Positions 31,995-56,604 of a stretch of 64,000 nucleotides of DNA are shown here, piece by piece. Each line of letters starts with the position of its first letter. Position 1 is the first letter of the stretch. A program made the translations under genes and the position numbers. Origin of the DNA: Bdellovibrionota bacterium (GTDB lineage: Bacteria > Bdellovibrionota_C > UBA2361 > OMII01). The notes below the pieces were generated by a model, which was given only the letters and a program-made list of their open reading frames with translations, was not told where the DNA came from and searched no databases. The stretch lies in the NCBI GenBank assembly GCA_044345405.1, contig JBIJBE010000009.1:1-64000 (forward strand), written 5' to 3'.

Positions 31995-32003
31995 GGTTTG
32001 TCG

Positions 32004-40380: not shown

Positions 40381-40393
40381 AGGATTCTCCGAA

Positions 40394-41593: not shown

Positions 41594-41609
41594 TAGCTAT
41601 CGCCCCAAG

Positions 41610-42584: not shown

Positions 42585-42791
42585 TTTCCTCCGAGCCTAC
42601 AGTCCGGCCAATTCGTGAAAAACAATAGTCGTGGGACGATTTGAAAGCAATTTCCTGGCGCTCCTGCCCCCGATTATCAAGTTCATTCTACCCGACTATG
42701 GGCTCCACACCTACCGTTGATACCAGCTAGAAGAAACTCTCAAACCAGACGCTCCACCGTTTTGAGGAGCGATGAACCTCCATCCCCTAAA

Positions 42792-43490
42792 CTACTCAAT
42801 ATTATCCCTCTTCTCCAAATTATGCCGGGCGCACAGCAACTGAATGTTTTCAGCGCGAAGCGAAGTCCCCCCTTTCGAGAAAGGGACGATATGGTCGAAA
42901 TGCAGTTCATCGGTCGCTCCACAGGTGACACACCGTCCGCCGTCGCGGCGCCATACCTCTAACTTGACCGGGGTTGGAATAATTCGGCTTCGTTGCGCCT
43001 GATAGTGTGGCGGCTCTTCAGCTGCAAACTCATTCGAGACCTGCTCGATCGCTACAAGTTTAAACTTAAAGACGTTACGAGCTCCGTCGTGCTCAATCCA
43101 CGAATCCACGAGGTGAAAGAAGCCGTTATCGATCCAGATTCCTTTGTGAATCTTCTCGTATACCTGAACGATATCAGCGCCCTTCGTTCCGGCTTTGAAC
43201 TCCTGAGCGGCGTGGTGGAATTTTCCGTTCTCGGTTAGGCCCCCACGAGGTTGTCGCTCAGGTTGATCGAGCGCTTTAGGATCGGGGCCGCCGCGACGCG
43301 CTGGCTCGTCATGCCCCTCGTAGATCAAAACGGCCCCGTCCTCTTCAACTCGGTCCTGATATGGCGAGTTGGTCCTCACAGACATTAGGATGACAGAGTG
43401 TCTCCCCCGTAAGCGAAAATTCATGCCACGCTGAAGGGCGGCGCCCTCCTTTTGGCACATGTCGTAGTATGGGATTACGGTTCCTCGCAC
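42792..43490 (-). CDS. HNH endonuclease with SRA/YDG-like N-terminal domain
   Basis: YQDR...LIYEGHD...NGKF...VYEKI..GIW..NG.F...FKFKL, then VWRRDGGRCVTC...FDHIVPFSKGG...NIQLLCARHN. Confidence 0.8.
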   Translation of the reverse strand: MRGTVIPYYDMCQKEGAALQRGMNFRLRGRHSVILMSVRTNSPYQDRVEEDGAVLIYEGHDEPARRGGPDPKALDQPERQPRGGLTENGKFHHAAQEFKAGTKGADIVQVYEKIHKGIWIDNGFFHLVDSWIEHDGARNVFKFKLVAIEQVSNEFAAEEPPHYQAQRSRIIPTPVKLEVWRRDGGRCVTCGATDELHFDHIVPFSKGGTSLRAENIQLLCARHNLEKRDNIE

Positions 43491-43651
43491 AGTGGACCTC
43501 TACAGCAACCCCTCGCGCACCGGGATGCGGGGGGCTCTTATACCGGGCAAAAGAGTACCGCATGGACTCCCGCGACTCAATCAGGGCACGGCACCGCTAA
43601 AACGCTCGTCTTTCGAGAGAGCCCAAGCGGTGAACCTTGGGATCAGCTCCC

Positions 43652-44446
43652 CTAATTCAACGCCGCATCCGGAGCATTCGCTAAGATAAACGCCATAGCC
43701 AGGTCGGTTTGCGTTGGTGACACTACGGCGACAGCACCCGGTGCGATCGGTATACACTGACGAGTCTCTGATACGGCAAAAGAGAAGCTCGTGACCGCGA
43801 TAATGCCCCACTGCCCCTGATTGTTCTTTGCCAGGATAGGTCCGCCCGAATCGCCTTTACAGGTATTCCCCTTCCCGTCAGTTACGGCTTCGTAGAAGTA
43901 TCCATTCGTGGCACTCGCGAAGGTGAGATAGGTTGCCTTGAGCGGTGTCTCTCCTGCCTCTGCTCGGTCAAGCGCTCCACGTCCGTTTTCATCAACTCCG
44001 TAGCCGTAGGCGACAAGCTCCGCACCGGGACTTGGAGCGCCCGAGGATACGAGCAAGGAAGCCGGCGATACCGGCATTGGCTCTGCGACCTTTATTATCG
44101 CTAGATCAAATGAACGTAAGGTCCCGCGAAATTGAGGATGGATGGAATAGCTAGAGGCGATGCGGCCAAACTGGGGGGTGGCGACCTCTATCTGAGAGGG
44201 ACGGTCAGCAACACAGTGCGCCGCCGTGAGAATAGCAGTCTGGGATATCGCGGTGCCCGTGCAGAAGGACGTCGCACCTCCTTTATGCATTGCGAGCAAC
44301 ACAACGGGCGATGCACCTGACTCACACGACTCACCACCATTCACTTTTAGGGTCGAGCATGCGCTGGAACCGCCCCCTCCTCCACCCCCACAACCGAACA
44401 AAAGAACGCTCGTGAATAAAATGAGAAATGTATTTGCCGTCTTCAT
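43652..44446 (-). CDS. Trypsin-like (S1) serine protease lipoprotein
   Basis: LLFGC lipobox plus Gly linker, FCTGT, TAAHC, DLAI, CKGDSGGP. Confidence 0.9.
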   Translation of the reverse strand: MKTANTFLILFTSVLLFGCGGGGGGGSSACSTLKVNGGESCESGASPVVLLAMHKGGATSFCTGTAISQTAILTAAHCVADRPSQIEVATPQFGRIASSYSIHPQFRGTLRSFDLAIIKVAEPMPVSPASLLVSSGAPSPGAELVAYGYGVDENGRGALDRAEAGETPLKATYLTFASATNGYFYEAVTDGKGNTCKGDSGGPILAKNNQGQWGIIAVTSFSFAVSETRQCIPIAPGAVAVVSPTQTDLAMAFILANAPDAALN

Positions 44447-44719
44447 AGGGGAGCCTTTGTATCCTTTCTGGATGTGTCGCACACGGCGAACCATCTTCAT
44501 CATTTGACGCGCCGGAGCGAGTCCTCGTGGTTGAGGACTTTAGTCATGGAGGAAGGGGGAAGCCATCGGGTGTACCAGGTGATGAGTCACCTTAGTGGAG
44601 TCCCACGACGATGAGTCCTCCAAACATTTCCGATTCCAGTCCGACATCAATTCTGCATGTCACGACGAAAGATGAGTGTTACTTCTCTGACTCGCCTACC
44701 AAACAAGGAGCTCTGACAT

Positions 44720-45334
44720 ATGTTCCGAATAAAACTTCTGTTCTTCTCCGGGGCGAGCATCGAACTTATCCGTGTTGACTTCGCTCATGGCTCACACCCG
44801 GTCATTACCTCCATACGGGGCAAGACTGACGGGGCATATCGTGGGGCTGGTACGTTTCAATGGTCGTCGGCCGTTCGCGCGGTAGCTTCCATATTCCTAA
44901 AAGCAAAGCTCATAGAGGACCTCGTGCCTGGCGAGCCGATGTTGACTGGGGAGGAACGCTCCCTTGCGGCATCTTTGGACTACGCTCTTACGAAGAGACC
45001 GAATTGGTTGCTGGATATGTTTGGGGTATCGGCCAACGGAACATCCACAGCCAGGCGGCTATTCAAAGTTTCAAACTCACATCGAAAGCGAGGTGGTGCC
45101 GTGTCGTTATCACTCAATCTATACGCATGCCCCCCTCACTGCGTAGAGATCTTTCTTGATGGAAAGGAGGTACAAAGGCCGGAAGTGTTTCGACAGATGC
45201 TTGCGAACATAGAATCCTATCGTCCAGGACATCGGTCCTCGGAAGGCGTCAGAGAGAGTAGATCCTCCAAAACGCGATGTCGGGAACTCGACAAAACGGA
45301 CGAGGAGCCAGTGCTTGCAATCGGCTCGTGGTAG
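44720..45334 (+). CDS. Stand-alone unrecognised domain (copy 3)
   Basis: AAGGAG RBS; RGKTDGAYRGAGTFQWSSAV...SLAASLDYALTKRPNWLLDMFG...NSHRKRGGAV. Confidence 0.85.
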   Translation: MFRIKLLFFSGASIELIRVDFAHGSHPVITSIRGKTDGAYRGAGTFQWSSAVRAVASIFLKAKLIEDLVPGEPMLTGEERSLAASLDYALTKRPNWLLDMFGVSANGTSTARRLFKVSNSHRKRGGAVSLSLNLYACPPHCVEIFLDGKEVQRPEVFRQMLANIESYRPGHRSSEGVRESRSSKTRCRELDKTDEEPVLAIGSW

Positions 45335-45600
45335 ACGGGTATCGTGGAATATCAGACCGTTACACCAAATGGGGCGAATGACCTCTATAGCGGTGCGCGG
45401 TCACTTTTTCCCTTAGAAACTATACCGGTCTGCGGTATAGTTTCGCTCACCTCACAAGCCGCCCCTTCCTCTTCAACCGCATGTGTCCGGGCAGCCTCGT
45501 CATTCCGCTTGCAGGGGGTTATCTCTCTTTCTCATTTGATCTCGTGGAAAGAGAACTACCGAAAAGACTTCGGAATCAACGTGCGAACGGAACTCTTTCC

Positions 45601-45628
45601 TTGACGTCAGATAAGCATTCGGTACCAT
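45601..45628 (+). promoter_or_regulatory. Possible sigma70 promoter
   Basis: TTGACG-16 nt-TACCAT about 30 nt upstream of the ATG at 45658. Confidence 0.35.
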
Positions 45629-45657
45629 CTCCAGCACAACGCCTAGAGGTGGGTACC

Positions 45658-46827
45658 ATGACTCAAATTGACCTCTATTTTCGAAGCTGTGATGACTCGC
45701 TACCTGCGTTGGTCGAAGTAGCCTTTCGACGAAATGGCGATTCTCCAGTTCTTCGAACCGTTCGCGGCAAGTTTTGTTATATCGTTCCCGCGGGTGGAAG
45801 TTTTCAGTGGACCCGTGCGGTCAAGGCACTCACGGTGCTTCTCCTTCGGACCGCCCTGCACGGCAACAGCGCGGTAATTCAGGGAGAAGCTGGAAGCTTA
45901 GCGGCATCACTCGATTACGCGCTGTCCAAAGAGCCGACATGGCTCTCCGAAATGTTTGGAGCCGACGCTCAAGGGAGAGCTTTTGCGAGACGCCTGTTCT
46001 ATCGAACTAATCCTGAGAGAAAGCGTTCAGGCCCCGTCATTATTAACCTCAATCCAGCCATCGTGAAGGCACCACAAATTCAGATATATGTGGACGGTAC
46101 TAAGATGCCGCCGTCTCCAAACCTTGAGATGATTCTCAAGCGATTCGAATCAGTGGAAAAAATTGAGGGAAAAAGTGAGCTCCGTAGCCGAGAGGCGGGG
46201 AACAGCTCGCTGGAGGGGGAAACGTCAGACCGAGTGCTCGTGGGAATTGCGGACCTCCTTGAACGAACGAGTTCCTCAAGGAATCTCTCGCTCAAGGTGA
46301 CCGAGGACGGACTTGTCACATCCTTCGCCTCACTAGCTGAGGCCGATACCGTTCTTCCGTCTCTGATGGATATGTGTACCGGCGAGTCAAAGGGCTCGAC
46401 GATGTATTGGTATTTAAACCACGCTTGGTGGCCCTTGATATCACCACTCTACTGTTTTCGACACACCGAAGCCTCACGATCGGTACATACAAATGTGAGC
46501 TATGTTTCCCCCTCGTCGGGCGCAACCGATCGATATGTTTCAAATTTCTACGCCAACTCCGGAATTCCAAGCCGATTGGGAGCTTCCTCCTTCTTAGAGC
46601 ACGACACCTGGCTGTTCAACGATTACGTTATTGAGCAGGTCTTTCCCGCGGAACTTCGAAAGGAGATCGATGCATTCCTCAGCCAAACTCAAAAGCTTGA
46701 GGCGTTCAACCCAGTTTCCTTTATCCGTAACTTTTTAGAGGCTGACGCAAAGATCGAACTGAGAGTAAGAAAAATGTCAGACGCCGCCCCCCTGCGGGCG
46801 GCGTTTGAACAAGCGATGAGGTGGTAA
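45658..46827 (+). CDS. Unrecognised N-terminal domain (copy 4) fused to a different C-terminal domain
   Basis: GAGGTGG RBS; GGSFQWTRAV...SLAASLDYALSKEPTWLSEMFG...NPERKRSGPV; C-terminal HAWWPL...DRYVSNFY...WLFNDYVIEQVFP. Confidence 0.8.
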   Translation: MTQIDLYFRSCDDSLPALVEVAFRRNGDSPVLRTVRGKFCYIVPAGGSFQWTRAVKALTVLLLRTALHGNSAVIQGEAGSLAASLDYALSKEPTWLSEMFGADAQGRAFARRLFYRTNPERKRSGPVIINLNPAIVKAPQIQIYVDGTKMPPSPNLEMILKRFESVEKIEGKSELRSREAGNSSLEGETSDRVLVGIADLLERTSSSRNLSLKVTEDGLVTSFASLAEADTVLPSLMDMCTGESKGSTMYWYLNHAWWPLISPLYCFRHTEASRSVHTNVSYVSPSSGATDRYVSNFYANSGIPSRLGASSFLEHDTWLFNDYVIEQVFPAELRKEIDAFLSQTQKLEAFNPVSFIRNFLEADAKIELRVRKMSDAAPLRAAFEQAMRW

Positions 46828-46828
46828 C

Positions 46829-47503
46829 ATGATCGAATCAAAGCAAGGGAGTCCTTTTTTTATGAGCGAAAGAACCGAGCATGCAACGATGCCGCCACGA
46901 GAACCGGACGCGGCCTGCCCCTTCGGACCGGGACTTCAAAAGTACTGGGACCTTCTCTCCCCAGAGGAGAAGAGGATGCAAATGGATATCCCCGGGCTCT
47001 ACTCAATCACGGTGCGCGAACTAGCTCTTCAAATCGCGACGACGTTACATGGGGATTCGGTTTTCGACGCTTTTTGTGGACTTGGAGGCAACGCGATCGC
47101 TTTTGCGTTAGCGGGCAAGAGGGTCATCGCGAGCGAGCTAGACGAAGGGAGACTGGAGATGGCAAAGGCAAACGCCGCGCTCGCGGGCGTTTCAGACCGA
47201 ATCACCTTTGTGCAAGGTGACACACTCTCTCAACTTGGTCGAACTGCATGCGACGCAATATTTCTCGATCCTCCTTGGGGTGGTCCCCAGTACTCAAAGA
47301 TCGAAAAATTCAAGCTGAGCTTTTTCTCTCCGGATGGAGAGGGCCTTTTGGAGTCTGCGATTCGAAACTATGCGGGAGTTGCATTTAAGTTGCCAGGCAA
47401 TTTCGATTTTAGCGAACTAGACCGTTTCGGAGCTGGTCAGTGGCAGGTGCAGGAGAATCGCTTGAATGGAAAGTTGCTACACTATACTGCGTATCGGCAG
47501 TAG
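46829..47503 (+). CDS. Tgs1-like (RNA cap guanine-N2 methyltransferase family) SAM-dependent methyltransferase
   Basis: KYW...GLYSIT, DAFCGLGGNAIAFA, DAIFLDPPWGGPQY, FKLPGNFD; starts 1 nt after the upstream stop. Confidence 0.75.
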   Translation: MIESKQGSPFFMSERTEHATMPPREPDAACPFGPGLQKYWDLLSPEEKRMQMDIPGLYSITVRELALQIATTLHGDSVFDAFCGLGGNAIAFALAGKRVIASELDEGRLEMAKANAALAGVSDRITFVQGDTLSQLGRTACDAIFLDPPWGGPQYSKIEKFKLSFFSPDGEGLLESAIRNYAGVAFKLPGNFDFSELDRFGAGQWQVQENRLNGKLLHYTAYRQ

Positions 47504-47704
47504 CGGGCGCCGACTCAAAGCCGCTCTAGGAGTTCAACGTCCCTGAACCAACCGCGCCGGGGAACTGATTAGCGTTACGGGTATCTCCTTCCCTACTCGC
47601 ACGGTTGCCCGAAACCTTACCGCACCCTTATCGCAACTTCCCTGGCGGTTCCACGATAACCCCCTACGCTCTAATCACCCCTTATAATTCTCTCGATTAA
47701 TTAT

Positions 47705-47719: not shown

Positions 47720-48001
47720 ATGTTCTCATGGGACCCGGCTAAAGCGGCCGTTAACTACCTGAAGCACAAAGTGTCTTTTCATGAAGCGATGTCAGTCTTC
47801 GCGGATTCACGAGCGTTAGAGAGTCCTGACGTAAAGCATTCTCACCATGAGGCACGGCGCTTTATCGTAGGCGCTTCGGATCAGGACCGGGTACTCGTAG
47901 TGATCTTCACAATACGGAGGCATCGCAGTGGTAACAAAACGCTCAGAATCATCAGCGCGAGGCAAGCGTCCCGCAAAGAGAGGTCGGCATATGCCAGATA
48001 G
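47720..48001 (+). CDS. brnT: BrnT family toxin
   Basis: FSWDPAKA..NYLKHKVSF.EA..VF.D, EARRFIVG, RIISARQASRKER. Confidence 0.9.
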   Translation: MFSWDPAKAAVNYLKHKVSFHEAMSVFADSRALESPDVKHSHHEARRFIVGASDQDRVLVVIFTIRRHRSGNKTLRIISARQASRKERSAYAR

Positions 48002-48218
48002 CAAGATCGATTTCTCGGATGTTCCAGAGCTTAGCGATCGCCAGCTCAAGACCGCTCGCCGAGTCGGGCGTCCTCGAACTGGGAACGCGAAGCAACTGAT
48101 CGCCCTACGGATTGCCCCTTCCCTACTTGCCACACTGAGGAGAATAGCGAAGAAGCGGGGGATGCCGTACCAGACGTTGATGCATGAGATTTTGGAGAGC
48201 GCGGCGAAGAAAGGGTAA
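47991..48218 (+). CDS. brnA: BrnA/CopG-like antitoxin
   Basis: IDFSDVPEL, RVGRP, KQLIALRI, GMPYQTLM. Confidence 0.85.
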   Translation: MPDSKIDFSDVPELSDRQLKTARRVGRPRTGNAKQLIALRIAPSLLATLRRIAKKRGMPYQTLMHEILESAAKKG

Positions 48219-48391
48219 TCCAGGTATCTTCCTTATTCGCACCCGTTCTAAACAGATGCAATCGACCTTGAGGCGACCTCCCCCGGCTCCCCTACATCGC
48301 ATCCTTCTGAATCCTCGTCATACCGGTACTATGTTTTCGTACTGAATCACGTTGAATCCGGTGATATACTTGAGGCTCTTTCGGAGGACCT

Positions 48392-49429
48392 ATGAAATTC
48401 GCCTCACTCCCTAAACTTCAACCTGGAGACTCGGTCGGCATCGTATCTCCTTCGTTCGTCGCTCCCGCGATATTTCCTATGGAATACGATCTGGGACTCT
48501 CGCGATTACGGGAGCGCTTTGGGCTTAATCCGGTTGAGATGCCGAACGTAAAGAATAGGGACGCGACACCTGAGGACAAGATGAATGACCTGATTCAGGC
48601 GTTCTCGGATCCAAAGATAAAGGCGGTTATCACTACGATTGGTGGCGATCACCAGATTGAGTACGTGCATAAGCTTCCCTCAGAACCGTTTCGGAATAGT
48701 CCCAAGCCGTTCTTTGGCTATAGCGACAATACGCACCTCAGTAATTTTCTCTTTCTGCAGGGAATACCCTCCTACTATGGGGGATGTATCTACACAGAAT
48801 ACGCCATGCACGGCGCCATGCATCCCCTCACCGAGCGGTATACGCGAACAGCGCTCTTCTTCGGCGGGGAGCAAACGCTTGAGGCGAGCCAGGACTTCAA
48901 CGATGAGGACCTGATGTGGGGTCTTCCGGAGAACCACGCCCGTCACCGACGCCATCAACCAAACGAGGGGTGGCAGTGGAATGGCGCGCGAGACGGACGG
49001 GGAGTCCTGTGGGGAGGATGCGTAGAATCCGTCGATGAGATCCTTCGCCATGGACGCGCAATTCCAACGCTCTCTGACTTCGAGAAGATCGTTCTCTTCT
49101 TTGAGACATCGGAGGAGATGCCCTCTGCCACGTATGTAGGGCGAGTGCTCCGTGCGTTCGGTGAACGAGATATCCTTTCGCGTGTACAGGGTGTGCTGGT
49201 AGGACGTCCCAAGGCGTGGAACTTTGAGAAGAGGTCCTCAGATGAGGAAAAGGTAGCGTACAAAGAAGCGCAACGGCACACGGTCTTGCAAACTATCCGC
49301 ACGTACAATCCAACGGTGCCAGTAGTACAGAATATGGACTTCGGACATACGTCACCAACGTTGTGCCTTCCGTATGGTGGAGAGGTACATATTCAGTCGG
49401 CGCCGCGTGCCGTGAGAGCTTGGTATTAG
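48392..49429 (+). CDS. S66 family LD-carboxypeptidase (MccF-like)
   Basis: LQPGD.VGIVSPS, TIGGD, FFGYSDNT, FFETSE, MDFGHT. Confidence 0.9.
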   Translation: MKFASLPKLQPGDSVGIVSPSFVAPAIFPMEYDLGLSRLRERFGLNPVEMPNVKNRDATPEDKMNDLIQAFSDPKIKAVITTIGGDHQIEYVHKLPSEPFRNSPKPFFGYSDNTHLSNFLFLQGIPSYYGGCIYTEYAMHGAMHPLTERYTRTALFFGGEQTLEASQDFNDEDLMWGLPENHARHRRHQPNEGWQWNGARDGRGVLWGGCVESVDEILRHGRAIPTLSDFEKIVLFFETSEEMPSATYVGRVLRAFGERDILSRVQGVLVGRPKAWNFEKRSSDEEKVAYKEAQRHTVLQTIRTYNPTVPVVQNMDFGHTSPTLCLPYGGEVHIQSAPRAVRAWY

Positions 49430-49484
49430 CCGAAGGGGAGAATGGCTTAGGCGCTACCTGCGCCACTACACTGGAGTTTAATCG

Positions 49485-50213
49485 ATGCCCTCTAAGAAGT
49501 CCTATCAAGTGTTCGCTCGATACTATGACGCGGTCATGGGGGATCGAAAACGTGACATCGCTCGGGTGAAGCTCTGGATCCGAGAGCGTGTTCCCCATGC
49601 AAAGAGATTGGTAGAGCTAGGGTGCGGCACTGGCGCGGTACTTCAGGGCTTCGCCGGACGGTATGCTGTGACTGGGGTCGATCTCTCAGGCGAAATGTTA
49701 CGCGTCGCGAAAAAGCGACTGCCCCACGCCACGTTGCGAAAAGGTGACATGTCACGCTATCGCTCAAGCGAGAAAGTCGATGTGGTCCTCTGCCTCTTTG
49801 ATACGATCAATCATCTCGTCTCGTTTCGGGATTGGACCCGTCTCTTCGCGAACGCTCGCTCCATGCTCGCATCGGATAGCGTTTTTATCTTCGACATCAA
49901 TACGATCGAACGGCTTCAGGCATTATCCACCTTTGGGCCGATGGTCTCCTACTTCTCAGATGAGGATTTTGTGCTCATGCGAGTCTCCAAGGGAAGCGCG
50001 AACCGTTTCTCGTGGGATGTTCGGATCTTTGAGCGTTCGCGCCCTACCCGTTATAGGAGTCATCGAGAGGTAATTCAGGAAGCCTCGTTCCCTATCGATC
50101 GTATCACCTCTTCATTGACTCGCTGGTTTTCACGAATTGAGCTTTTCAATGCTGAAGGAGAACCTGTCTCCGCCAACGCGCAGGGGCGGGTGTTCTTTGT
50201 GTGTCGACCGTAA
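49485..50213 (+). CDS. Class I SAM-dependent methyltransferase
   Basis: FARYYD, ELGCGTG, GVDLSGEML, CLFDTINHL, FIFDINT. Confidence 0.9.
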   Translation: MPSKKSYQVFARYYDAVMGDRKRDIARVKLWIRERVPHAKRLVELGCGTGAVLQGFAGRYAVTGVDLSGEMLRVAKKRLPHATLRKGDMSRYRSSEKVDVVLCLFDTINHLVSFRDWTRLFANARSMLASDSVFIFDINTIERLQALSTFGPMVSYFSDEDFVLMRVSKGSANRFSWDVRIFERSRPTRYRSHREVIQEASFPIDRITSSLTRWFSRIELFNAEGEPVSANAQGRVFFVCRP

Positions 50214-50261
50214 CCATCGGTTCGCACCCAGTATCTTCAAACATACTTTCACACGGCTCTC

Positions 50262-50528
50262 TCAAGGGAGAGGTATCCCCTTCTTTTTCTTCGCCTCCAC
50301 ATACGACCGCAGCACCGCGTTCATCAGGGATTGATATCCCTTGCCGGTCGACCGAAACCATTCGAGAACGTCATGGTCGACACGCAACGAAATGGCTTCC
50401 TTAGGAAGAGGAAGTTCCACCCGCGCTCGTCGCCAGAAGGAGGCACCGAGCTCGGGGATATCCTCGTAGCTAATTGATTCGGCGGTAGATGAGGTTTTCT
50501 TTTTAGAGGAACGGCTTGATTTTGGCAT
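50262..50528 (-). CDS. brnA: BrnA antitoxin
   Basis: DIPELGASFW, KEAISLRVDHDVLEWFRSTGKGYQSLMNAVLRSYV. Confidence 0.9.
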   Translation of the reverse strand: MPKSSRSSKKKTSSTAESISYEDIPELGASFWRRARVELPLPKEAISLRVDHDVLEWFRSTGKGYQSLMNAVLRSYVEAKKKKGIPLP

Positions 50529-50786
50529 AGAATGTTTGACGCTCCTTTTTGTTAGCCCGACGAGCGGAGATTATTCGTATCTTTGAGCCCCGGCGAGTGT
50601 GCGCGATGACCAGTACGGTTCCTGAATGGTTTGAACCGATAGGAATCCATCGCTCTTCCCCATACGGAAACGTCGATCCGGAGCGGTCAACGAGACACGT
50701 TCGAAGACCTCGGTTGCCTCCGTGAAGGTCACGCCGTGCTTCTCTTTGTTAATTTCATCTTTAACGAGGTCCCATTCGAACCTCAC
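50503..50786 (-). pseudogene. brnT: Frameshifted BrnT toxin
   Basis: RFEWD..K..INKEKHGVTF.EA in one frame; YGEERWIPIG...IRIISARRANKKER in another; 1-nt shift near 50665-50670. Confidence 0.8.
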
Positions 50787-50942
50787 ACGTAGTCCATACA
50801 CTATGTATATACAGCTGAAAAGGCCTTGGTGCGCATGTCGAACCGGAGGAACCTTACGCCACATGAGGCGCGGTCCGCTGCCGACAGTTGGGACCGATGT
50901 ATCGAGAATATGAGAGAAAGGTTGTGCTCGCGTTATATGAGG

Positions 50943-51520
50943 CGGCGGTCAGGAGCTCACGTAGGTGCGCTACGAGGGACGAGCTGCCCGCCCTCCCGGA
51001 TCACGGGTCAACTCGGGCCGGAACTCGCGCGCGTAATGTTCGTGTGGCTTCCGGCCCGTCAGTAGACGGTTCCTCCGGGGGCGACGCCGCCATCTTTGCA
51101 TCGTGGGGCACGGCGGTCAGGAATGACCGCCCTCCCGATTTACGGGTCAAGACGGGCCTTCATATTTCACCGTCCTCGCATGAGACCGTTCCGGGGGCCC
51201 GTGTCCACACGGGCCGGAAGTCGAACGATAATTTCGGGGCGAGTTCCGGCCCGTCGGGAGACGGGCCCTCCGGGGGAAAACGTCGCCATCTTTGCGTCGT
51301 GGGGCACGGCGGTCAGGAATGACCGCCCTCCGGATTTACGGGTCGAGACGGGCCCTCCGGGGGAAAACGCCGCCATCTTTGCGTCGTGGGGCACGGCGGT
51401 CAGGAATGACCGCCCTCCGGATTTACGGGTCGAGACGGGCCCTCCGGGGGGAGAATGTCACCATTTTCATCTCCCGCAATGCGGCGGTCAGGAATGACCG
51501 CCCTCCGGGATCACGGGTCG
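50943..51520. repeat. BIME-like array of two REP-type hairpins
   Basis: CGGCGGTCAGGAATGACCGCCCTCC at 51111, 51307, 51394 and 51482 (87-88 nt period for the last three), interrupted copy at 50943; GGCCCGTC-N4-GACGGGCCCTCC at 51248 and degenerate at 51053. Confidence 0.9.
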
Positions 51521-51651
51521 TACTATCTGAAATCACCGGACCACTACGAAAAACCCGTAGCCACCAAAACACGCTCGAGGCTACAGGAATCCCCTGCTTT
51601 CCCATAACCATTACTGGGACATGCTCGTATTCGGGCATTGGGGGGGATTAT

Positions 51652-54600
51652 ATGAGTTCAATTTCAACGCACGCGACACCGCGTCCTGAAACCGTATCTA
51701 CTACCGACGTTGTTGAGGTATCGCGCGTTCAGAACGGCGACGACAAGCTCGCGCAGCCATCGGCGTCACGCGCGTCGAGTGCACAGCAGTCAGTAGCTCA
51801 GGAGCTCAGGGTATTTTTAGGTGCTCACTGGGAATCGCAGGCTGTAAAGGAACTCTACGAAGAGCTGAAAGCTGACCGCGTTACACCTGACAACATTCCG
51901 GCGACCTTCCTTGAGTCTCAACGGATCGTGAATCCCCTTTCACCTGAGGGTGTCACGTTCCAGAACTCGATGGAGCAGCTCACCAAACGGCTCCTTCCCG
52001 AGATCGATCAAAAAGCTCATCCAATCACATTCGTTATCGCCGACGCCCAGCAAGAAAACGCCTTCATTATCACAACCCCACAGCAGAGCCTCATTTGCTT
52101 CGACCGCAAACTTCTCGCGACCTTCGACAACCTCGACCAGCTCTCGTGGGTACTCCTCCACGAGCTTACCCATCTTCAATATAAGGACCTGTTTGGAGCG
52201 GTTCCCGCCTCTCAAACTGAGGAGGCAGCATGTGACCTCCGTCCCCTTATGAAGATGCACGACGCGGGACTCAATCCGGCGGAAGCTGAAGCATACGCGA
52301 TAAAGATGGCGAAGACCAAACAGCCGGCGTGGCTCTCAATGGTTGACGCTCACGGACTTCCTCCTTTTCGAGTAGACGCCATTCAGAAAGGACTCGCGGC
52401 GTTGCGACATTCTCGGGGTAAGCTTAAAGAGGGCACGGAGCCTCTTCCCGATCCCCTCCAAGTGGATGGCGGGTTACGGGGAGCTCGACACGAGTCATTT
52501 GTCGACCTGAAACTAAAAGCGACCCAGTATGCCGAGGGAACAACCCTTGAAAAGGTGAGGATACTTCACTCCATGCTTCCAGACCTGGAAGCGAGGTTTC
52601 ACCATCGCGCGGACGATATGGCAAAGCGGGTTCGAAAGCTCATCGTAGCCGAATCTGACAAAGAGACACGAGTGGTACTCGCTCAGCTGATGGACTCACT
52701 CCTCGACAATCCACCCGCATTTAACGCGCTTCACGTTCATCTTCGCTCCGCTCTGGACGGTGCGCATCCGAAAAAGATCCGCTACTACGCCCCTCGACTT
52801 CTGCAGGTAGCCAAAGCGGCGAAAGCTTTTATCGAAGCCGACGATGACACGACGGCACAGGAGAAGGCGGCGGCCGCTAGCCATCTCATCAAGACACTCG
52901 AAGACCTCCCCGCTTGGCAATCAATTAATTGGGGCACCGTGGATCTGCCACACTTTGCACTCCCCGATGAACGTGAGTATAAGCGAGCGATCAAGGAGGC
53001 GAAATCCTCAGGGGATGACGTCGTATTTCCATGGCACGAACTCGCCGAGGCCGCGAGCAGCGAGAATCAGATAGGGCGCGCGTTGCTCTGCCTTGGTACG
53101 TGGGATGACCGAATTCCTCTCAACGCCGGAAACGAGGACCTTACCTGGATGGATGCGCATTTGCGGCTTGCCAAGCAAAGCTCGGGCCATTCCCATCACT
53201 CGTATGAGTCAACTATTTCGACACCGCGAACGGACGAGGGAGAGAACTCCCGCTTTCAGCTAATAACGAATGGTGGTGGACTCATCAAAAAAGTAGACCC
53301 GCTGGCTACAGACCGAGACACCGTAAAACGGGATGTCGCGAACAGAATTACGGTCGAGCTCGAGCGAGCGAGACTTGAGGCGGAAACAAGTGTCGCTATC
53401 GCAACCGTCCCCTCTGAAGAATTACCGAGTTCAAGCCGGGAGCGGACCCTTTCATTCCTGAGCCTCCCGTATAGTGAATTCATGAAGGACCCGTACGCGC
53501 ACCTGCGGGTGAACGAGGTGTTGCTGTGTCCCCCATCGTACATTTCACCGAGCGGCTCCGCTGGACGATTACGGTCGCAGCTGCGGGACCTCATGGCACT
53601 TACGACAAACTCAGCGCGCTCACTTCTGCGCTACTTCGACGGCATGCTTGACGTTACCTCCGAACCCGAGCGGACGACGTATCGCGAGTTCGTGCGGGAC
53701 TTTTTCCTAAACGAGACGACTCCCTTTAACTTTCAAACCGTAGTGGAACGACAGTTTGAGGATAATAGCTACTCCAACATCTTCCAATATGTGCGATGGG
53801 CCGGTAACGATACGCACCAACTCTTTAGCCTTCAAGAAAAAGGACTCATCTTTTCCGAATATCACGAGGGGGGGGCCCTCACGCTGGGCCGCAACGCCGC
53901 TGGGATGCGCAAACCTGAGACGGTCGACGAGCTCCGCCATGCGCTCGACACCTATCTTGAGATGACGGGCTTGCATGACCACACGGAAAACTCCAAAGTC
54001 GATCTCTCTTTATTTACAAGTGAAGTTATCTCGGCTGAGGTTGCTGAGTTTCTCCGTGACCATCGAGACGCGGAGGGACTCCATCGACTTCTGAGCTCGC
54101 ATGGCCACTGGCTCCGCGACGTCTATCGGGAGGCCTCCTTTGACCAGATATTCGTCGAGTACTTCAAGCATGAAAAATCGTGGCCAACCGACGCGATGAC
54201 ACTTGGAGCGATATATCGCGCAATCGAGGGACTTGGCATCTTCCCCAACGAGTTATGGCGAGCCTCATTCGCGGTTCGGGTATTGGAGAGCGTAGACGCC
54301 ACAACCGATCTCCAAACACGAGTCGATGCCCTTGAGAATCTCCTCTTAGGAACGCCACCAAAAGATGTGGACATCCGCGAAGGGGCGATCGCCCGGTGGG
54401 TCACCTCGATGGCGACGATGTACGGCGATGACCACACAGCTTCATGGAACTCCTCGGACTGTCCATATCTCGCGACGATTCAACCGGTCTTGGACCGAGT
54501 TGCAGGGGAGGCGCATTCATCCATACGGGGAGAGATGCTCGACGCCTTGGGCAATCGGATACTGGCGCAACGCCAGGTGAGTCACGCGATTGAGCGGGCG

Positions 54601-56604
54601 ATCCTTGGACCGATCGACAATGCCGCCACACAAAGCACGGGAGCCGCGTACGGAGGGCTTCAAGCGGGCTTTATGATTATTGGCGAAGCGAAGGAGAACC
54701 GCTTTAAAACGATTCATTTCCTTACGCGCCCCTTGACGGACAAACGTATCAAGGCGTTCTCAAAATTGGTTATCAACGAGGGGATGGCAACCTCACAGAT
54801 GCTCGATGCTGATGACCTGTCAGGTATCGACTCCCCTCGAAACCGACGTCGTATACAGCTCGAATGCAAGCGTATTCATGAGAACTTCTGGCGGGCTCCG
54901 ATAGGGTATCGCGCGGCTTTTCTGGAAGAGCTCATGATGCCCGCCGCGGCGCGTTTACGGGACCTTCAAGCTGGAACTCAGAAAACCTTCACCAACGCCT
55001 GCGATTTCGTTATATCCGAGCTTCTTCCACTTAAGGACAGGCACGACCGGCCGATCAAATACGCGCCCGAGGCCCAACGGATCTTGAGGGCGTTTCTTGC
55101 CGATGGGGTCCTTGACCACCGACAGCAGCCGATCTTTCTCTCAGCGTTGATGGCCGCCGCGCAACGTTCCAACGAGGAGCGAGGTCGCTTAAGCGTCGGG
55201 CAGATCCTCGCCTCTATCTTCGACAACATGGGTCCAGCATGGCGTAAATTTGGACAGGCGATCGCCAATCACCCAAGCACTCCCCTCGATATCGCTCGCG
55301 ATATGGAGCCACTCAAAGGGAAGCAATCTGTTACTCGCGCTCAAGCGTGGGCACTCTACGAACATACGGTGCCGGAAGATATCCGTATACAGAACCCACG
55401 ACTTGGACCGGTGCTTGAATCCGCGTCCTTCTTCACCGCTGTTGATGCCGGGAACGAGGTGTTTACGTTCCTGACGCCGAAAGCTCTCGTACGAGCGGAG
55501 GATGGATTCTCCATTATGGAGAGCTTTGTCGCGGAGCTTCGGAAAGCGGAGGATTCGCTCTCACAGGTCGCACCCGCGGTCGCGGAGATGGTGTCCAGCG
55601 CGCGAACGAGCGCTATCCTGGAGACGAATGGACGGGTTGGTGCCGCTCAGGCTGATGCGATGCGAGCCCGCTATAATGAACTCACCGTTACGATCGGGAA
55701 TATGAAGTTCCCCTTCTCTACCGCCGCGTGGAGTGATCACGGTCCGGAGTTTCGTCGCATGCAGAAGATGAAAGGTCCGACCTTTAACGACGTTCCATCC
55801 ACAACACCAGAGGAGATCGAGCATAAACGGCACGTCGCGAAAACTATCGTGTACGTTGAGCTGCGAAATATCCTCTCTGGAAACGCGTTCTGCGTCGACC
55901 GACACGGTCGTAACATTCGGGTCGATGGAAACTCGGTTGGACATTTTGACCACGGAGCGGTTCACGCCGTTGTGCGGGATAAGAAGGGCAAGGAGGTACA
56001 CCCACTTGAGGCGGAGCCAGCCCTCGTTGGCGGTGGAACGGTTGAGATTCCGGGTGCGAGCGGGACGGAGAAGCTGCAACTCGCGGAGGCGTTGTACAGC
56101 GCGTACACGCAGCTTAATGGCGGGCAGCCCCTCGCTGTTGTTATGCACAACGAGATTGAGAAGGCTCGCGCCGCTACCGGCGCGACGCCCGAGTACCTTA
56201 TCCGGGTGGAGCGAGCGTTGTTGGCACTCAACGATTGTTTCAAGTGTCTCAACGGGCAGGACATGAAGGATATACTCGGAAGCCTCTACCTGAACGGGGA
56301 TATCGACAAAACCATAACGACAACCCTAGAGAGCAAGATTAAGAGCGAGAAGATCGGCGGCTTCGCTGGACTCTTCGTAAACGCGTCTAAGGTTATTCGC
56401 GGTGAGATCGAGAAGTCGGTCGTTGAGCGAATGACGGTTTCTCAGGGCTCTCAGAACCAGGGAGCTCGCTCTCAGTGGCACGACAACGCGATGAATCGTC
56501 AGGACGTGCCGTCGTTGCTTACGACGAGGGATTTCCGGCAGAAGAAGAAGGAAGAATCTGGCAGGGCGCGGAAGCGGAGCTTGACGGTGCCTACGTTGGA
56601 GTAA
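51652..56604 (+). CDS. 1650-aa protein: N-terminal M48-like zinc peptidase, long helical middle, C-terminal ABC1/UbiB-like atypical kinase
   Basis: ENAF...VLLHELTH...EEAACD; MGPAWRKFGQ, SAS, DRHGRN, FDHG; ATG at 51652 chosen because the upstream ORF extension runs through REP repeats. Confidence 0.75.
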   Translation: MSSISTHATPRPETVSTTDVVEVSRVQNGDDKLAQPSASRASSAQQSVAQELRVFLGAHWESQAVKELYEELKADRVTPDNIPATFLESQRIVNPLSPEGVTFQNSMEQLTKRLLPEIDQKAHPITFVIADAQQENAFIITTPQQSLICFDRKLLATFDNLDQLSWVLLHELTHLQYKDLFGAVPASQTEEAACDLRPLMKMHDAGLNPAEAEAYAIKMAKTKQPAWLSMVDAHGLPPFRVDAIQKGLAALRHSRGKLKEGTEPLPDPLQVDGGLRGARHESFVDLKLKATQYAEGTTLEKVRILHSMLPDLEARFHHRADDMAKRVRKLIVAESDKETRVVLAQLMDSLLDNPPAFNALHVHLRSALDGAHPKKIRYYAPRLLQVAKAAKAFIEADDDTTAQEKAAAASHLIKTLEDLPAWQSINWGTVDLPHFALPDEREYKRAIKEAKSSGDDVVFPWHELAEAASSENQIGRALLCLGTWDDRIPLNAGNEDLTWMDAHLRLAKQSSGHSHHSYESTISTPRTDEGENSRFQLITNGGGLIKKVDPLATDRDTVKRDVANRITVELERARLEAETSVAIATVPSEELPSSSRERTLSFLSLPYSEFMKDPYAHLRVNEVLLCPPSYISPSGSAGRLRSQLRDLMALTTNSARSLLRYFDGMLDVTSEPERTTYREFVRDFFLNETTPFNFQTVVERQFEDNSYSNIFQYVRWAGNDTHQLFSLQEKGLIFSEYHEGGALTLGRNAAGMRKPETVDELRHALDTYLEMTGLHDHTENSKVDLSLFTSEVISAEVAEFLRDHRDAEGLHRLLSSHGHWLRDVYREASFDQIFVEYFKHEKSWPTDAMTLGAIYRAIEGLGIFPNELWRASFAVRVLESVDATTDLQTRVDALENLLLGTPPKDVDIREGAIARWVTSMATMYGDDHTASWNSSDCPYLATIQPVLDRVAGEAHSSIRGEMLDALGNRILAQRQVSHAIERAILGPIDNAATQSTGAAYGGLQAGFMIIGEAKENRFKTIHFLTRPLTDKRIKAFSKLVINEGMATSQMLDADDLSGIDSPRNRRRIQLECKRIHENFWRAPIGYRAAFLEELMMPAAARLRDLQAGTQKTFTNACDFVISELLPLKDRHDRPIKYAPEAQRILRAFLADGVLDHRQQPIFLSALMAAAQRSNEERGRLSVGQILASIFDNMGPAWRKFGQAIANHPSTPLDIARDMEPLKGKQSVTRAQAWALYEHTVPEDIRIQNPRLGPVLESASFFTAVDAGNEVFTFLTPKALVRAEDGFSIMESFVAELRKAEDSLSQVAPAVAEMVSSARTSAILETNGRVGAAQADAMRARYNELTVTIGNMKFPFSTAAWSDHGPEFRRMQKMKGPTFNDVPSTTPEEIEHKRHVAKTIVYVELRNILSGNAFCVDRHGRNIRVDGNSVGHFDHGAVHAVVRDKKGKEVHPLEAEPALVGGGTVEIPGASGTEKLQLAEALYSAYTQLNGGQPLAVVMHNEIEKARAATGATPEYLIRVERALLALNDCFKCLNGQDMKDILGSLYLNGDIDKTITTTLESKIKSEKIGGFAGLFVNASKVIRGEIEKSVVERMTVSQGSQNQGARSQWHDNAMNRQDVPSLLTTRDFRQKKKEESGRARKRSLTVPTLE

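What the first reader, a model, noticed from the sequence alone, without database searches (positions are those of the whole stretch)
46829..47503. Bacterial Tgs1-like methyltransferase translationally coupled to the novel-domain gene
Seen: KYW, G-x-YS-x-T, DAFCGxGGN and FLDPPWGG-x-x-Y motifs, with the ATG 1 nt after the upstream stop. Known: this motif set typifies trimethylguanosine synthase Tgs1, which N2-methylates m7G caps in eukaryotes and some giant viruses; bacteria lack m7G caps. Inference: it methylates a guanine nucleotide, a non-canonical cap or a small molecule, or acts on RNA of a eukaryotic host or prey.
Basis: partly seen in the sequence, partly recalled or inferred. Interest (0 to 1): 0.7.

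Follow-up and report, generated by a model that had tools for sequence, protein, structure and literature searches.

The report
Bacterial Tgs-type guanine-N2 methyltransferase with partner
A lake-water predatory-type bacterium carries a real relative of the eukaryotic enzyme that hypermethylates RNA caps, tightly joined to an uncharacterised partner gene, so it is a good candidate for testing whether bacteria modify m7G-type nucleotides or cap-like RNA ends.

Summary
ORF 46829..47503 (+, 224 aa) carries all four motifs, and its ATG lies 1 nt after the upstream TAA.

It belongs to the Tgs family, not to RsmD:
- Pfam PF09445 scores 88.4 bits against 26.0 bits for the RsmD family.
- Human TGS1 (3gdh) matches at E 9e-34 over residues 34-222.
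- A careful tree separates it from the genome's own RsmD.
- Residues that hold m7G and SAM in human TGS1 are kept across 74 prokaryotic relatives: the stacking Trp in 74 of 74 and DPPW-type Asp in 73 of 74.

It resembles the single-methylating Giardia Tgs2 type (DPPW).

The gene is accessory, found in 9 of 124 genomes of the phylum, and lies in a defence-gene-rich stretch.

In this lineage it is linked to the upstream protein. The stop-1 nt-ATG junction is conserved in L001. One relative has a domain fusion, and another has a C-domain-only neighbour. The partner has an N-domain with no solved-structure match and a PLD/TrmB-like C-domain without an HKD motif.

The substrate is untested. My best guess is an N7-methylated guanosine polyphosphate moiety, either a free nucleotide or a cap-like RNA end. 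Prokaryotic Tgs-like proteins were already noted in print as uncharacterised.

The parts
46829..47503 (+). Tgs-family (PF09445) SAM-dependent guanine-N2 methyltransferase, 224 aa. An alternative start is the ATG at 46862.
   Evidence: ORF listed. Pfam 88.4 bits, E 5.2e-25. Human TGS1 3gdh_A E 9.3e-34 over residues 34-222. Residue census. Trees.
46818..46831 (+). Gene junction: SD-like GAGGTGG (46818-46824), TAA stop (46825-46827), one base, then ATG (46829-46831).
   Evidence: Sequence. The same ATGAGGTGGTAA-t-ATG junction occurs in L001 at 2080-2095.
45658..46827 (+). Upstream partner gene, probably 389 aa from the ATG at 45658 (the mechanical ORF starts at 45481). The N-domain spans about residues 1-170 and the PLD/TrmB-like C-domain about residues 188-390.
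   Evidence: P0114 (389 aa, 87% identical) aligns from its residue 1 to query residue 2. A promoter-like site lies at 45601-45628. No Pfam or NCBIfam family was found. AlphaFold2 model with pLDDT 90.1. C-domain fold matches.
44720..45334 (+). Short paralogue (204 aa) made of the partner's N-domain alone, immediately upstream.
   Evidence: BLASTP against the 448-aa ORF: 36% identity, E 2.7e-28. The same order (short paralogue, partner, methyltransferase) is found in L001. Model pLDDT 89.9.
49485..50213 (+). Class I SAM methyltransferase (Methyltransf_25/11), 2 kb downstream. Whether it belongs to the module is uncertain.
   Evidence: Pfam. It shows only weak similarity (27%, E 3e-6) to the Methyltransf_11 gene that heads the L002 operon.

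Best explanation
ORF 46829..47503 encodes an active SAM-dependent guanine-N2 methyltransferase of the Tgs family, from a prokaryotic branch that resembles the Giardia Tgs2 / mimivirus 'DPPW' type.

Inferred mechanism: SAM sits on the D80-x-F-x-G-x-G-G-N motif and on E103. A guanine base stacks on W150 with S59 on the other face, which in human TGS1 selects the cationic N7-methylated guanine. The 5' phosphates are held by K38, Y155 and probably the family-specific basic residue K187. One methyl group is then transferred to N2.

The likeliest acceptor is an m7G 5'-(poly)phosphate moiety, either a free m7G nucleotide or dinucleoside polyphosphate or a cap-like RNA 5' end such as m7Gp4N.

The gene is an accessory gene. 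In this Bdellovibrionota lineage it is co-expressed with the upstream two-domain protein and probably works with it. That protein has an N-domain with no solved-structure match plus a non-catalytic PLD/TrmB-like domain, and I take it to be a targeting or regulatory subunit.

Shown: family membership, conservation of the binding residues, and the genetic linkage. Inferred: the substrate, single methylation, and the partner's role.
For: Family membership:
- PF09445 scores 88.4 bits; the next best families are UPF0020 at 30.6 and the RsmD family PF03602 at 26.0.
- No NCBIfam model reaches its cut-off. RsmD TIGR00095 scores 14.9 bits against a cut-off of 117.5.
- Human TGS1 catalytic domain matches at E 9.3e-34 and includes the N-terminal extension. 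The next solved chain scores 6.4e-7.
- A profile of 29 prokaryotic relatives scores eight eukaryotic Tgs1 proteins at 125-209 bits but the genome's own RsmD at 18.5 bits.
- The genome has a separate canonical RsmD (139.2 bits, contig C22).
- In the careful tree the three outgroup methyltransferases split from all Tgs-like rows with support 100/99.

Active site, mapped through the alignment onto residues named in PMC2709555: K646=K38, Y647=Y39, W648=W40, S671=S59, T673=T61, D696=D80, N704=N88, D719=E103, N731=N115, S763=D147, W766=W150, Y771=Y155, P806=P189, N808=N191.

Census over 74 sequences, the window protein plus P0001-P0073:
- W 74 of 74
- D 73 of 74
- Y155 73 of 74
- S59 72 of 74
- N115 74 of 74
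- D80 74 of 74

Giardia Tgs2 also has DPPWGG..Y and a Glu at the end of strand 2, and adds only one methyl (PMC1865056).

Linkage to the partner:
- The partner is present with the same junction in L001 (82% identical).
- L002 has an operon of Methyltransf_11, a 496-aa partner homologue and two Tgs-like genes.
- L083 has a single 390-aa ORF joining the N-domain to a Tgs-like domain.
- L084 has a C-domain-only ORF ending 5 nt before the methyltransferase ORF.

A possible substrate pool: m7G-bearing non-canonical caps exist in E. coli and their methyltransferases are unknown (PMC7044304).
Against: - Nothing here shows activity or substrate.
- R807 of human TGS1, which contacts the alpha and beta phosphates, is G190 here and is R or K in only 26 of 74 relatives. 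F804 is K187 here. E667 is P55. Giardia R186A keeps 73% activity, which softens the R807 point, but the phosphate pocket may differ.
- The genome has no canonical cap guanylyltransferase and no cap N7-methyltransferase: PF01331 and PF03291 gave 0 matches in a genome that is 99.4% complete. An m7G-polyphosphate acceptor must therefore come from some other, unidentified route.
- Across the wider family there is no conserved neighbour. Of 83 flanking ORFs scanned, no Pfam family occurs in more than 3. The partner is therefore lineage-specific and says little about the family's general substrate.
- The fused copy in L083 has a degenerate motif (APCW, with no GGPxY), so the link could be to binding rather than to catalysis.
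- The start could be M12, which would leave a 34-nt gap instead of 1 nt.
Confidence: 0.55

Rival explanations
1. It is a housekeeping-type rRNA or tRNA m2G methyltransferase that acts on an internal, unmethylated guanosine, as RsmD, RsmC or Trm11 do. Its Tgs likeness would then reflect only shared ancestry.
For: - Weak hits to RsmD-type and other RNA methyltransferase families (PF03602 at 26.0 bits, UPF0020 at 30.6 bits).
- NCBI labels several relatives 'RsmD family RNA methyltransferase'.
- Retention of the family in small-genome CPR bacteria and DPANN-type archaea would suit an RNA-modification role.
Against: - RsmD TIGR00095 scores 14.9 bits against a cut-off of 117.5.
- The genome has its own RsmD.
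- The gene is present in only 9 of 124 genomes of the phylum, so it is not housekeeping here.
- The N-terminal extension residues that bind cap phosphates (K-Y-W, Y-S-x-T) are conserved.
- The tree split from the outgroup has support 100/99.
Confidence: 0.15
2. The three genes (short N-domain paralogue, partner, methyltransferase) form a conflict module, either an anti-phage defence system or a toxin-antitoxin-like system. The methyltransferase would modify a guanine nucleotide signal or phage or host RNA.
For: - It lies among a Type I restriction-modification system (29434-40479), a PDC-S57 T5orf172 protein (228.5 bits), an HNH protein, a trypsin-like protease and two BrnT/BrnA pairs.
- In L001 an AbiEi/AbiEii pair lies 3 kb downstream.
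- Its distribution is sporadic, and two copies look decayed: a frameshift in L084 and an in-frame TAA in G079.
- A Fic-Tgs-like fusion, P0072, exists.
Against: - The only PADLOC hit of the methyltransferase is the generic Rossmann part of mad2 (residues 61-161). The partner and the paralogue have no PADLOC hits.
- tblastn found no match in 50,697 phage records or 72,556 plasmid records.
- Other copies of the N-domain in the same genome lie beside ordinary genes (CorA, an aminotransferase, a sigma factor).
- Most family members elsewhere show no defence context.
Confidence: 0.15
3. It methylates a small molecule, either a guanine-derived metabolite or a natural product, rather than RNA.
For: - Some long members of the N-domain family carry GTP cyclohydrolase II, with or without a HAD hydrolase (2 of 10 scanned: P0154 and P0166).
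- An HD_4 (RelA/SpoT-type HD) gene follows the methyltransferase in L001 and L012.
- Eukaryotic Tgs enzymes accept free m7GTP and m7GDP.
Against: - There is no biosynthetic cluster around the gene.
- HD_4 occurs in only 2 of 83 flanking ORFs.
- The GTP cyclohydrolase fusions involve the N-domain, not the methyltransferase.
Confidence: 0.1
4. It is an effector that hypermethylates m7G caps of a eukaryotic host or prey.
For: The active-site residues match cap-specific eukaryotic enzymes. IMG/VR relatives are mostly on contigs whose names carry the tag GVMAG.
Against: - The viral relatives are at most 33% identical.
- The family occurs in records titled as cultured strains of Methylocystis and actinomycetes, and in CPR bacteria and DPANN-type archaea.
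- By eye there is no signal-like N-terminus.
- Nothing in the window points to a eukaryotic host.
Confidence: 0.03

Closest known systems
Giardia lamblia Tgs2 / mimivirus Tgs (cap guanine-N2 monomethyltransferases; PF09445)
   Same: Both have a minimal domain of about 200-260 aa, the DPPWGG..Y motif with an essential Asp and Trp, a Glu at the end of strand 2, and an N-terminal extension that is needed for activity (PMC1865056; mapping).
   Different: This protein is bacterial, in a genome with no canonical capping genes detected. It has a basic residue at the position of human F804 and no Arg at the position of R807. It is coupled to a partner gene, and its activity is untested.
Human TGS1 catalytic domain (PDB 3gdh, 3egi)
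   Same: It aligns over residues 34-222 at E 9.3e-34. The stacking Trp, the Ser on the opposite face, the phosphate-binding Lys and Tyr, and the SAM-binding Asp and Asn are all conserved.
   Different: The human enzyme has SPPW and F804, which the authors link to the second methylation. Here these are DPPW and Lys. The human protein is a long multidomain nuclear protein.
Uncharacterised prokaryotic Tgs-like family (source labels 'RsmD family RNA methyltransferase' or 'trimethylguanosine synthase')
   Same: The window protein is a member. Relatives of 40-87% identity and about 200-250 aa occur in many phyla. The family's likeness to yeast Tgs1 was noted in PMC2588526.
   Different: My searches found no function in print. 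The Bdellovibrionota subgroup alone has the N-domain/PLD-like partner.
TrmB/TrmBL2-type regulators and non-catalytic PLD-fold domains (for the partner's C-domain)
   Same: The partner's C-domain (188-390) aligns to the TrmBL2 C-terminal domain (5box_A: Z 9.6, rmsd 3.9, 138 aligned) and to the PLD-fold nucleases NucT (Z 9.5), Zucchini (Z 9.1) and Nuc (Z 8.8). Longer homologues carry an insert of about 60 aa between the domains that looks by eye like a winged helix.
   Different: I saw no HxK(x)4D motif. The conserved motif is H-x-W-W-P. Sequence identity is 4-16%. The window's copy lacks the insert. The Z values are only modestly above the tool's stated background.

Membership tests
Tgs / RNA cap guanine-N2 methyltransferase (Pfam PF09445) | The family HMM is the best-scoring family and is above the gathering score. 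| tested here: met
   It scores 88.4 bits against a cut-off of 22, and the runner-up scores 30.6 bits. Note that the cut-off alone is unspecific: the family 'rings' in 11 of 14 control genomes.
Tgs / RNA cap guanine-N2 methyltransferase (Pfam PF09445) | Similarity to a solved Tgs catalytic domain, including the N-terminal extension that completes the cap pocket. | tested here: met
   3gdh_A matches at E 9.3e-34, query residues 34-222 to chain residues 30-229. K-Y-W and Y-S-x-T are present, and S59 is kept in 72 of 74 relatives.
Tgs / RNA cap guanine-N2 methyltransferase (Pfam PF09445) | Motif [S/D]-P-P-W with the stacking Trp, followed by G-G-x-x-Y. | tested here: met
   The window protein has D147-P-P-W150-G-G-P-Q-Y155. 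W is kept in 74 of 74, D in 73 of 74 and Y in 73 of 74.
Tgs / RNA cap guanine-N2 methyltransferase (Pfam PF09445) | SAM-binding Asp (motif I), an acidic residue at the end of strand 2, and the conserved Asn (human N731). | tested here: met
   D80 is kept in 74 of 74. Position E103 is E or D in 74 of 74. N115 is kept in 74 of 74.
Tgs / RNA cap guanine-N2 methyltransferase (Pfam PF09445) | Arg that contacts the cap alpha and beta phosphates (human R807), and Phe of the methyl pocket (F804). | tested here: not met
   These positions are G190 and K187 here. R or K occupies the R807 position in 26 of 74 relatives. This is not strictly defining, because Giardia R186A keeps 73% activity.
Tgs / RNA cap guanine-N2 methyltransferase (Pfam PF09445) | Groups with Tgs proteins and not with RsmD-type methyltransferases in a tree. 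| tested here: met
   In the careful tree of 69 rows, the outgroup (own RsmD plus two other own methyltransferases) splits off with support 100/99. The window protein lies in a 26-row prokaryotic clade with support 97/100. The AU test was not finished.
Tgs / RNA cap guanine-N2 methyltransferase (Pfam PF09445) | m7G-dependent methyl transfer to guanine N2. | not testable with these tools
   This needs an enzyme assay.
RsmD (16S rRNA m2G966 methyltransferase; TIGR00095 / PF03602) | The equivalog model is above its cut-off. | tested here: not met
   TIGR00095 scores 14.9 bits against 117.5. The genome's real RsmD scores 139.2 bits on PF03602 at C22, against 26.1 bits for this ORF.
PLD (HKD) superfamily, for the partner's C-domain | PLD-like fold. 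| tested here: inconclusive
   The top 50 rows are almost all PLD-fold proteins, with Z between 7.5 and 9.6. This was a second look at Foldseek's own matches, and Z is only a little above the stated background of 7-8.
PLD (HKD) superfamily, for the partner's C-domain | Catalytic HxK(x)4D motif. | tested here: not met
   I read the sequence and alignment A2 by eye. The conserved His is followed by x-W-W-P, with no Lys.
Known anti-phage defence systems (PADLOC-DB 2.0) | Specific model hits for the module's proteins. | tested here: not met
   The methyltransferase hits only the Rossmann part of mad2 (66.4 bits, residues 61-161). The partner and the short paralogue have 0 families.

The most novel reading that the evidence does not exclude
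Some bacteria make hypermethylated (m2,7G-type) cap-like 5' ends or dinucleoside polyphosphates. This Tgs2-like enzyme would be the missing second-step methyltransferase, acting on m7Gp(n)N. In Bdellovibrionota, a PLD/TrmB-like partner with an N-domain that has no solved-structure match would direct it to particular RNAs or couple it to a conflict system. That would be a prokaryotic counterpart, and perhaps a forerunner, of eukaryotic cap hypermethylation.
Probability: 0.12. Interest if true: 0.85.

Novelty: new variant of a known kind. Interest (0 to 1): 0.5.

Why it matters
Tgs enzymes are known for acting on eukaryotic and giant-virus m7G caps. A prokaryotic branch keeps the m7G-stacking Trp, the catalytic Asp and the phosphate-binding Lys and Tyr under clear conservation, yet it sits in a genome with no detected canonical capping genes. 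That implies an N7-methylated, or otherwise similar, guanine nucleotide acceptor that nobody has identified.

E. coli RNA carries m7Gp4Gm caps made by unknown methyltransferases (PMC7044304). This family therefore offers a concrete and easily expressed candidate for asking whether bacteria further methylate such ends.

The eukaryotic Tgs1 rows form one clade among prokaryotic rows, so the family also bears on where cap hypermethylation came from.

The partner gene adds a large protein family that is absent from Pfam-A and NCBIfam as searched here. Its N-domain gives a confident predicted model with no solved-structure match.

Tried and rejected
- **A false partner in Methylocystis.** I first read a 'conserved upstream partner and fusion' in the Methylocystis loci. 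The aligned translation (A4) has the R/D/H/A/G-rich make-up of a shadow ORF on the strand opposite a real gene in high-GC DNA. I withdraw it, and the 702-aa 'fusion' in L037 goes with it.
- **Complex prediction** of the partner (A2) with the methyltransferase (A1) gave no verdict: score 0.00 against a mark of 0.32. I do not use it either way.
- **The look-up of sequencing runs** listed no RNA holder. I ran no read laying, so there is no expression evidence.
- **Protein Atlas** gave no lead at 0.9 or above with a named family, for either the partner or the N-domain.
- **N-domain fold.** Foldseek against PDB gave no match at E <= 0.001. VIA-align against 48,161 chains gave a best Z of 3.7 (OmpR/PhoB-type DNA-binding domains) and 0 chains at Z >= 5. 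This is a lead only, and it does not prove that the fold is new.
- **A second, N7-type methyltransferase as a fixed partner.** Only L002 (operon) and L043 (a Methyltransf_25-Tgs fusion) show this. The class I methyltransferases involved are only 24-33% alike over short stretches. I rejected this as a general rule.
- **HD_4 as a conserved neighbour.** It occurs in 2 of 83 flanking ORFs, which is too few.
- **Neighbours of the other N-domain copies in the genome** show no common theme.
- **The 'longer' homologue search** returned 13 proteins. The five that carry a source name are eukaryotic, and three of those are labelled trimethylguanosine synthase.
- **The AU test** of a window-plus-outgroup clade did not finish within the time limit.
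- **Supplements** of papers were not opened.
Full report
**Observation.** The ORF 46829..47503 (+) is real and encodes 224 aa.
- KYW at residues 38-40
- G-L-Y-S-I-T at 56-61
- DAFCGLGGN at 80-88
- FLDPPWGGPQY at 145-155

The upstream ORF ends with TAA at 46825-46827. One base follows, and the ATG is at 46829. GAGGTGG at 46818-46824 lies inside the last codons of the upstream gene. The closest genomic relative, L001 (titled a Bdellovibrionota MAG, 78% identical), has the same ATGAGGTGGTAA-t-ATG junction. A later ATG (M12) is a possible alternative start and is the start of the 213-aa cluster representative P0001. Four close relatives are 224 aa long with a similar N-terminus.

**Family.**
- Pfam's PF09445 (RNA cap guanine-N2 methyltransferase) scores 88.4 bits, E 5.2e-25. 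The next families are generic or RNA methyltransferase domains at 30.6 bits or less, and the RsmD family PF03602 scores 26.0 bits.
- No NCBIfam model comes near its cut-off. RsmD TIGR00095 scores 14.9 bits against 117.5.
- Among solved structures, the catalytic domain of human TGS1 matches at E 9.3e-34 across residues 34-222, including the N-terminal extension. The next chain scores 6.4e-7.
- The genome (3.59 Mb, 85 contigs, 99.4% complete) has its own canonical RsmD on contig C22 (139.2 bits) and a TrmB-type m7G46 methyltransferase on C13.
- A profile built from 29 prokaryotic relatives scores eight eukaryotic Tgs1 proteins at 125-209 bits and the genome's own RsmD at 18.5 bits.
- I built a careful IQ-TREE tree of 69 rows. 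I left out L057, L053 and P0093 as fragmentary or very long-branched. The three outgroup methyltransferases split from all Tgs-like rows with support 100/99. The eight eukaryotic rows form one clade (100/99). The window protein sits in a 26-row prokaryotic clade (97/100) (the quick tree is).

**Active site.** I used the alignment and the residues described for human TGS1 in PMC2709555 (passages read) to map the window protein onto the human enzyme.

| Human TGS1 | Role given in PMC2709555 | Window protein |
|---|---|---|
| W766 | stacks on m7G | W150 |
| S671 | limits the opposite face of the pocket | S59 |
| K646 | binds phosphate | K38 |
| Y771 | binds phosphate | Y155 |
| D696 | contacts SAM | D80 |
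| N704 | contacts SAM | N88 |
| D719 | contacts SAM | E103 |
| N731 | mutated to Ala in Hausmann et al. as predicted important for activity | N115 |
| S763 (motif SPPW) | motif IV | D147 (motif DPPW) |

Census over 74 sequences, the window protein plus P0001-P0073:
- W150: 74 of 74
- D147: 73 of 74
- Y155: 73 of 74
- S59: 72 of 74
- N115: 74 of 74
- D80: 74 of 74
- K38: 51 of 74, plus 4 with Arg

Two positions differ from the human enzyme. R807 is G190 here, and R or K occupies that position in only 26 of 74 relatives. F804, which the human-structure paper links to holding the first methyl for the second methylation, is K187 here and is R or K in 62 of 74.

Giardia Tgs2 has DPPWGGVDY and a Glu at strand 2, adds a single methyl, and keeps 73% activity as R186A (PMC1865056, passages read). 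The window enzyme therefore looks like a Tgs2-type enzyme that probably adds one methyl. Single methylation is an inference.

**Distribution.**
- One peptide-pattern scan of one genome per GTDB species gave 58 loci (75 pattern matches, 58 confirmed).
- By their titles the loci include 3 Bdellovibrionota, 12 Methylocystis/Methylocystaceae, 6 candidate-phyla (CPR) bacteria, 3 archaea, 3 actinomycetes and 5 Myxococcota or Polyangia. Verrucomicrobiota, Dadabacteria, Planctomycetes and others are also present.
- In the window's own phylum a profile search found the gene in 9 of 124 genomes including G000. Among good-quality genomes the figure is 6 of 73, and among other genomes of the same genus it is 4 of 34.
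- Two of these copies look damaged: a frameshift in L084 and an in-frame TAA in G079.
- tblastn found nothing in 50,697 phage records or 72,556 plasmid records.
- The IMG/VR scan gave 62 confirmed loci at no more than 33% identity, mostly on contigs whose names carry the tag GVMAG.

The gene is thus a sporadic accessory gene of a widespread prokaryotic Tgs-like family.

**Neighbourhood.** The window around the gene holds:
- a Type I restriction-modification system (29434-40479)
- a T5orf172 protein matching the candidate defence family PDC-S57
- an HNH protein
- a trypsin-like protease
- two BrnT/BrnA pairs
- an LD-carboxypeptidase
- a class I methyltransferase

The methyltransferase's only PADLOC hit is the Rossmann part of mad2, and its partner has none. 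No tRNA gene lies in the window.

**The partner.** The upstream gene most likely starts at ATG 45658 and encodes 389 aa. The evidence is P0114, which is 389 aa and 87% identical, and a promoter-like site at 45601-45628. It has no Pfam or NCBIfam family.

*N-domain.*
- Its N-terminal part of about 170 aa is also the whole of the preceding gene, 44720..45334 (36% identity).
- The domain occurs 9 times in this genome.
- A full HMMER scan found 904 cluster representatives at E <= 0.001 and 743 at E <= 1e-10. They come in short forms of about 180 aa and long forms of 460-730 aa.
- Of 10 long forms scanned against Pfam, 2 carry GTP cyclohydrolase II (one of them with a HAD hydrolase), 1 carries TPR repeats, 1 has a sub-threshold LigT match and 6 have no family.
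- A model of the short paralogue has pLDDT 89.9. It has no Foldseek PDB match at E <= 0.001. Its best VIA-align Z is 3.7 among 48,161 chains, to OmpR/PhoB-type DNA-binding domains, and no chain reaches Z 5.

*C-domain.*
- The AlphaFold2 model of the whole partner has pLDDT 90.1.
- The C-domain (188-390) aligns to PLD-fold proteins: TrmBL2 5box_A (Z 9.6, rmsd 3.9, 138 residues), NucT (Z 9.5), Zucchini (Z 9.1) and Nuc (Z 8.8).
- By eye there is no HKD motif.
- Longer homologues carry an insert of about 60 residues between the domains that looks by eye like a winged helix. That would give a TrmB-like layout.

**Linkage between partner and methyltransferase.**
- Among the 58 loci, tblastn found the partner only in L001 and L002.
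- L001 keeps the same order: short paralogue, partner, methyltransferase.
- L002 has an operon of Methyltransf_11, a 496-aa partner homologue, and two Tgs-like genes.
- I fetched stretches from seven further genomes of the phylum:
  - L083 (same genus) has one 390-aa ORF in which the N-domain is fused in frame to a Tgs-like domain. Motif IV of that domain is degenerate (APCW).
  - L084 has a 210-aa C-domain-only ORF ending 5 nt before the methyltransferase ORF.
  - L079, L080 and L082 have the methyltransferase with no partner in the stretch fetched.
  - L085 is a short contig with a partial copy.
- G081's match sits at coordinates that fit L001, and I take them to be the same contig. I did not verify this. 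On that basis, a partner domain lies next to or fused with the methyltransferase in 5 of the 9 genomes.
- Outside this phylum there is no conserved neighbour. I scanned 83 of the 104 ORFs flanking the methyltransferase. I dropped the two known partner ORFs and the redundant Methylocystis loci, some of whose ORFs are shadow ORFs, along with the near-duplicate Myxococcota loci. No Pfam family occurs in more than 3 of the 83: NTP_transf_2 in 3, and HD_4 and class I methyltransferases in 2 each.
- One Methylobacter ORF (L043) fuses a class I methyltransferase to a Tgs-like domain. One metagenomic protein (P0072) fuses Fic to a Tgs-like domain.

**Mechanism.** These points are shown:
- The protein is a Tgs-family methyltransferase with the SAM site and the guanine-stacking site intact.
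- Those sites are under conservation in prokaryotes.
- The gene is genetically tied to the partner in this lineage.

These points are inferred:
- It methylates N2 of a guanine that stacks on W150. By analogy with human TGS1 and Giardia Tgs2, that guanine is N7-methylated and carries 5' phosphates.
- It adds one methyl.
- The partner targets or regulates it.

The genome has no detectable cap guanylyltransferase or cap N7-methyltransferase. The acceptor therefore cannot be a canonical cap made by the cell. Candidates are m7G nucleotides released from tRNA or rRNA turnover, dinucleoside polyphosphates, or non-canonical m7Gp(n)N caps of the kind found on E. coli small RNA, whose methyltransferases are unknown (PMC7044304, passages read). 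I put about 0.55 on this overall reading. The rivals are listed separately.

**What is known.**
- A 2015 review states that caps are absent from bacterial and archaeal transcripts (PMC4615557, one passage).
- Sources already label relatives 'trimethylguanosine synthase' or 'RsmD family RNA methyltransferase'.
- My full-text searches for a characterised prokaryotic Tgs found none. These searches cover only the open-access library, and supplements were closed.

**Verdict.** The enzyme belongs to a known but uncharacterised prokaryotic branch of the Tgs family. What is new here is the documented conservation of the m7G-type pocket across that branch and the lineage-specific coupling to a two-domain partner. 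Interest is moderate at 0.5. It would rise sharply if m7G-dependent activity on bacterial cap-like ends were shown.

Noticed in passing
window 44720-45334, 45658-46170, 22469-22990, 25107-25697; G000 contigs C15, C33, C70, C60:65794-66333: A domain of about 170 aa with no Pfam or NCBIfam model is present 9 times in this genome. It has 904 cluster representatives at E <= 0.001 in the public protein set. Its model is confident (pLDDT 89.9), yet the best structural match is only Z 3.7. Short and long forms exist, and some long forms carry GTP cyclohydrolase II.
   Followed up: partly
window 22469-25697: This is a second locus with the same domain. A 506-aa protein shares only the N-domain with the partner. 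A class I methyltransferase lies on the opposite strand (24011-24796), and a short paralogue lies at 25107-25697.
   Followed up: partly
L083 8020-9192 (-): In a genome of the same genus, one 390-aa ORF fuses the N-domain to a Tgs-like domain. Motif IV of that domain reads APCW and the GGPxY stretch is lost. It may be an inactive, binding-only copy.
   Followed up: partly
L002 2875-6603: In another Bdellovibrionota MAG there is an operon of four genes: Methyltransf_11, a 496-aa partner homologue, and two tandem Tgs-like methyltransferases.
   Followed up: partly
L043 4161-5603; P0072: Two single ORFs fuse another domain to a Tgs-like domain. One (Methylobacter MAG) fuses a class I methyltransferase, and the other (metagenomic protein) fuses a Fic domain.
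   Followed up: no
L001 2992-3756; L012 6765-7328: An HD_4 (RelA/SpoT-type HD) gene lies directly downstream of the Tgs-like gene in a Bdellovibrionota MAG and in an Iainarchaeum MAG. This is only 2 of 83 flanking ORFs.
   Followed up: partly
window 51258-51520: A tandem repeat of 87 bp, 3.0 copies and 89% matches lies inside the 5' part of the mechanical 1770-aa ORF 51292..56604. That ORF has only a weak Peptidase_M48 match.
   Followed up: no
window 29434-44503 and 47720-50864: This stretch is rich in defence genes: a Type I restriction-modification system, a PDC-S57 T5orf172 protein, an HNH protein, a trypsin-like protease, and two BrnT/BrnA pairs, one of which has overlapping ORFs at 47720-48218.
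   Followed up: partly
window 45600-47600: All 24 listed public runs that hold this stretch are labelled lake water metagenome. 21 of them hold half or more of the sampled words, and 7 may be the source sample.
   Followed up: no
L029, L030, L031, L037, L038, L044 (Methylocystis loci): Long ORFs of 430-700 aa on the + strand upstream of the Tgs-like gene have a shadow-ORF amino-acid make-up. They are probably not genes. This is a trap for naive ORF calling in high-GC DNA.
   Followed up: yes
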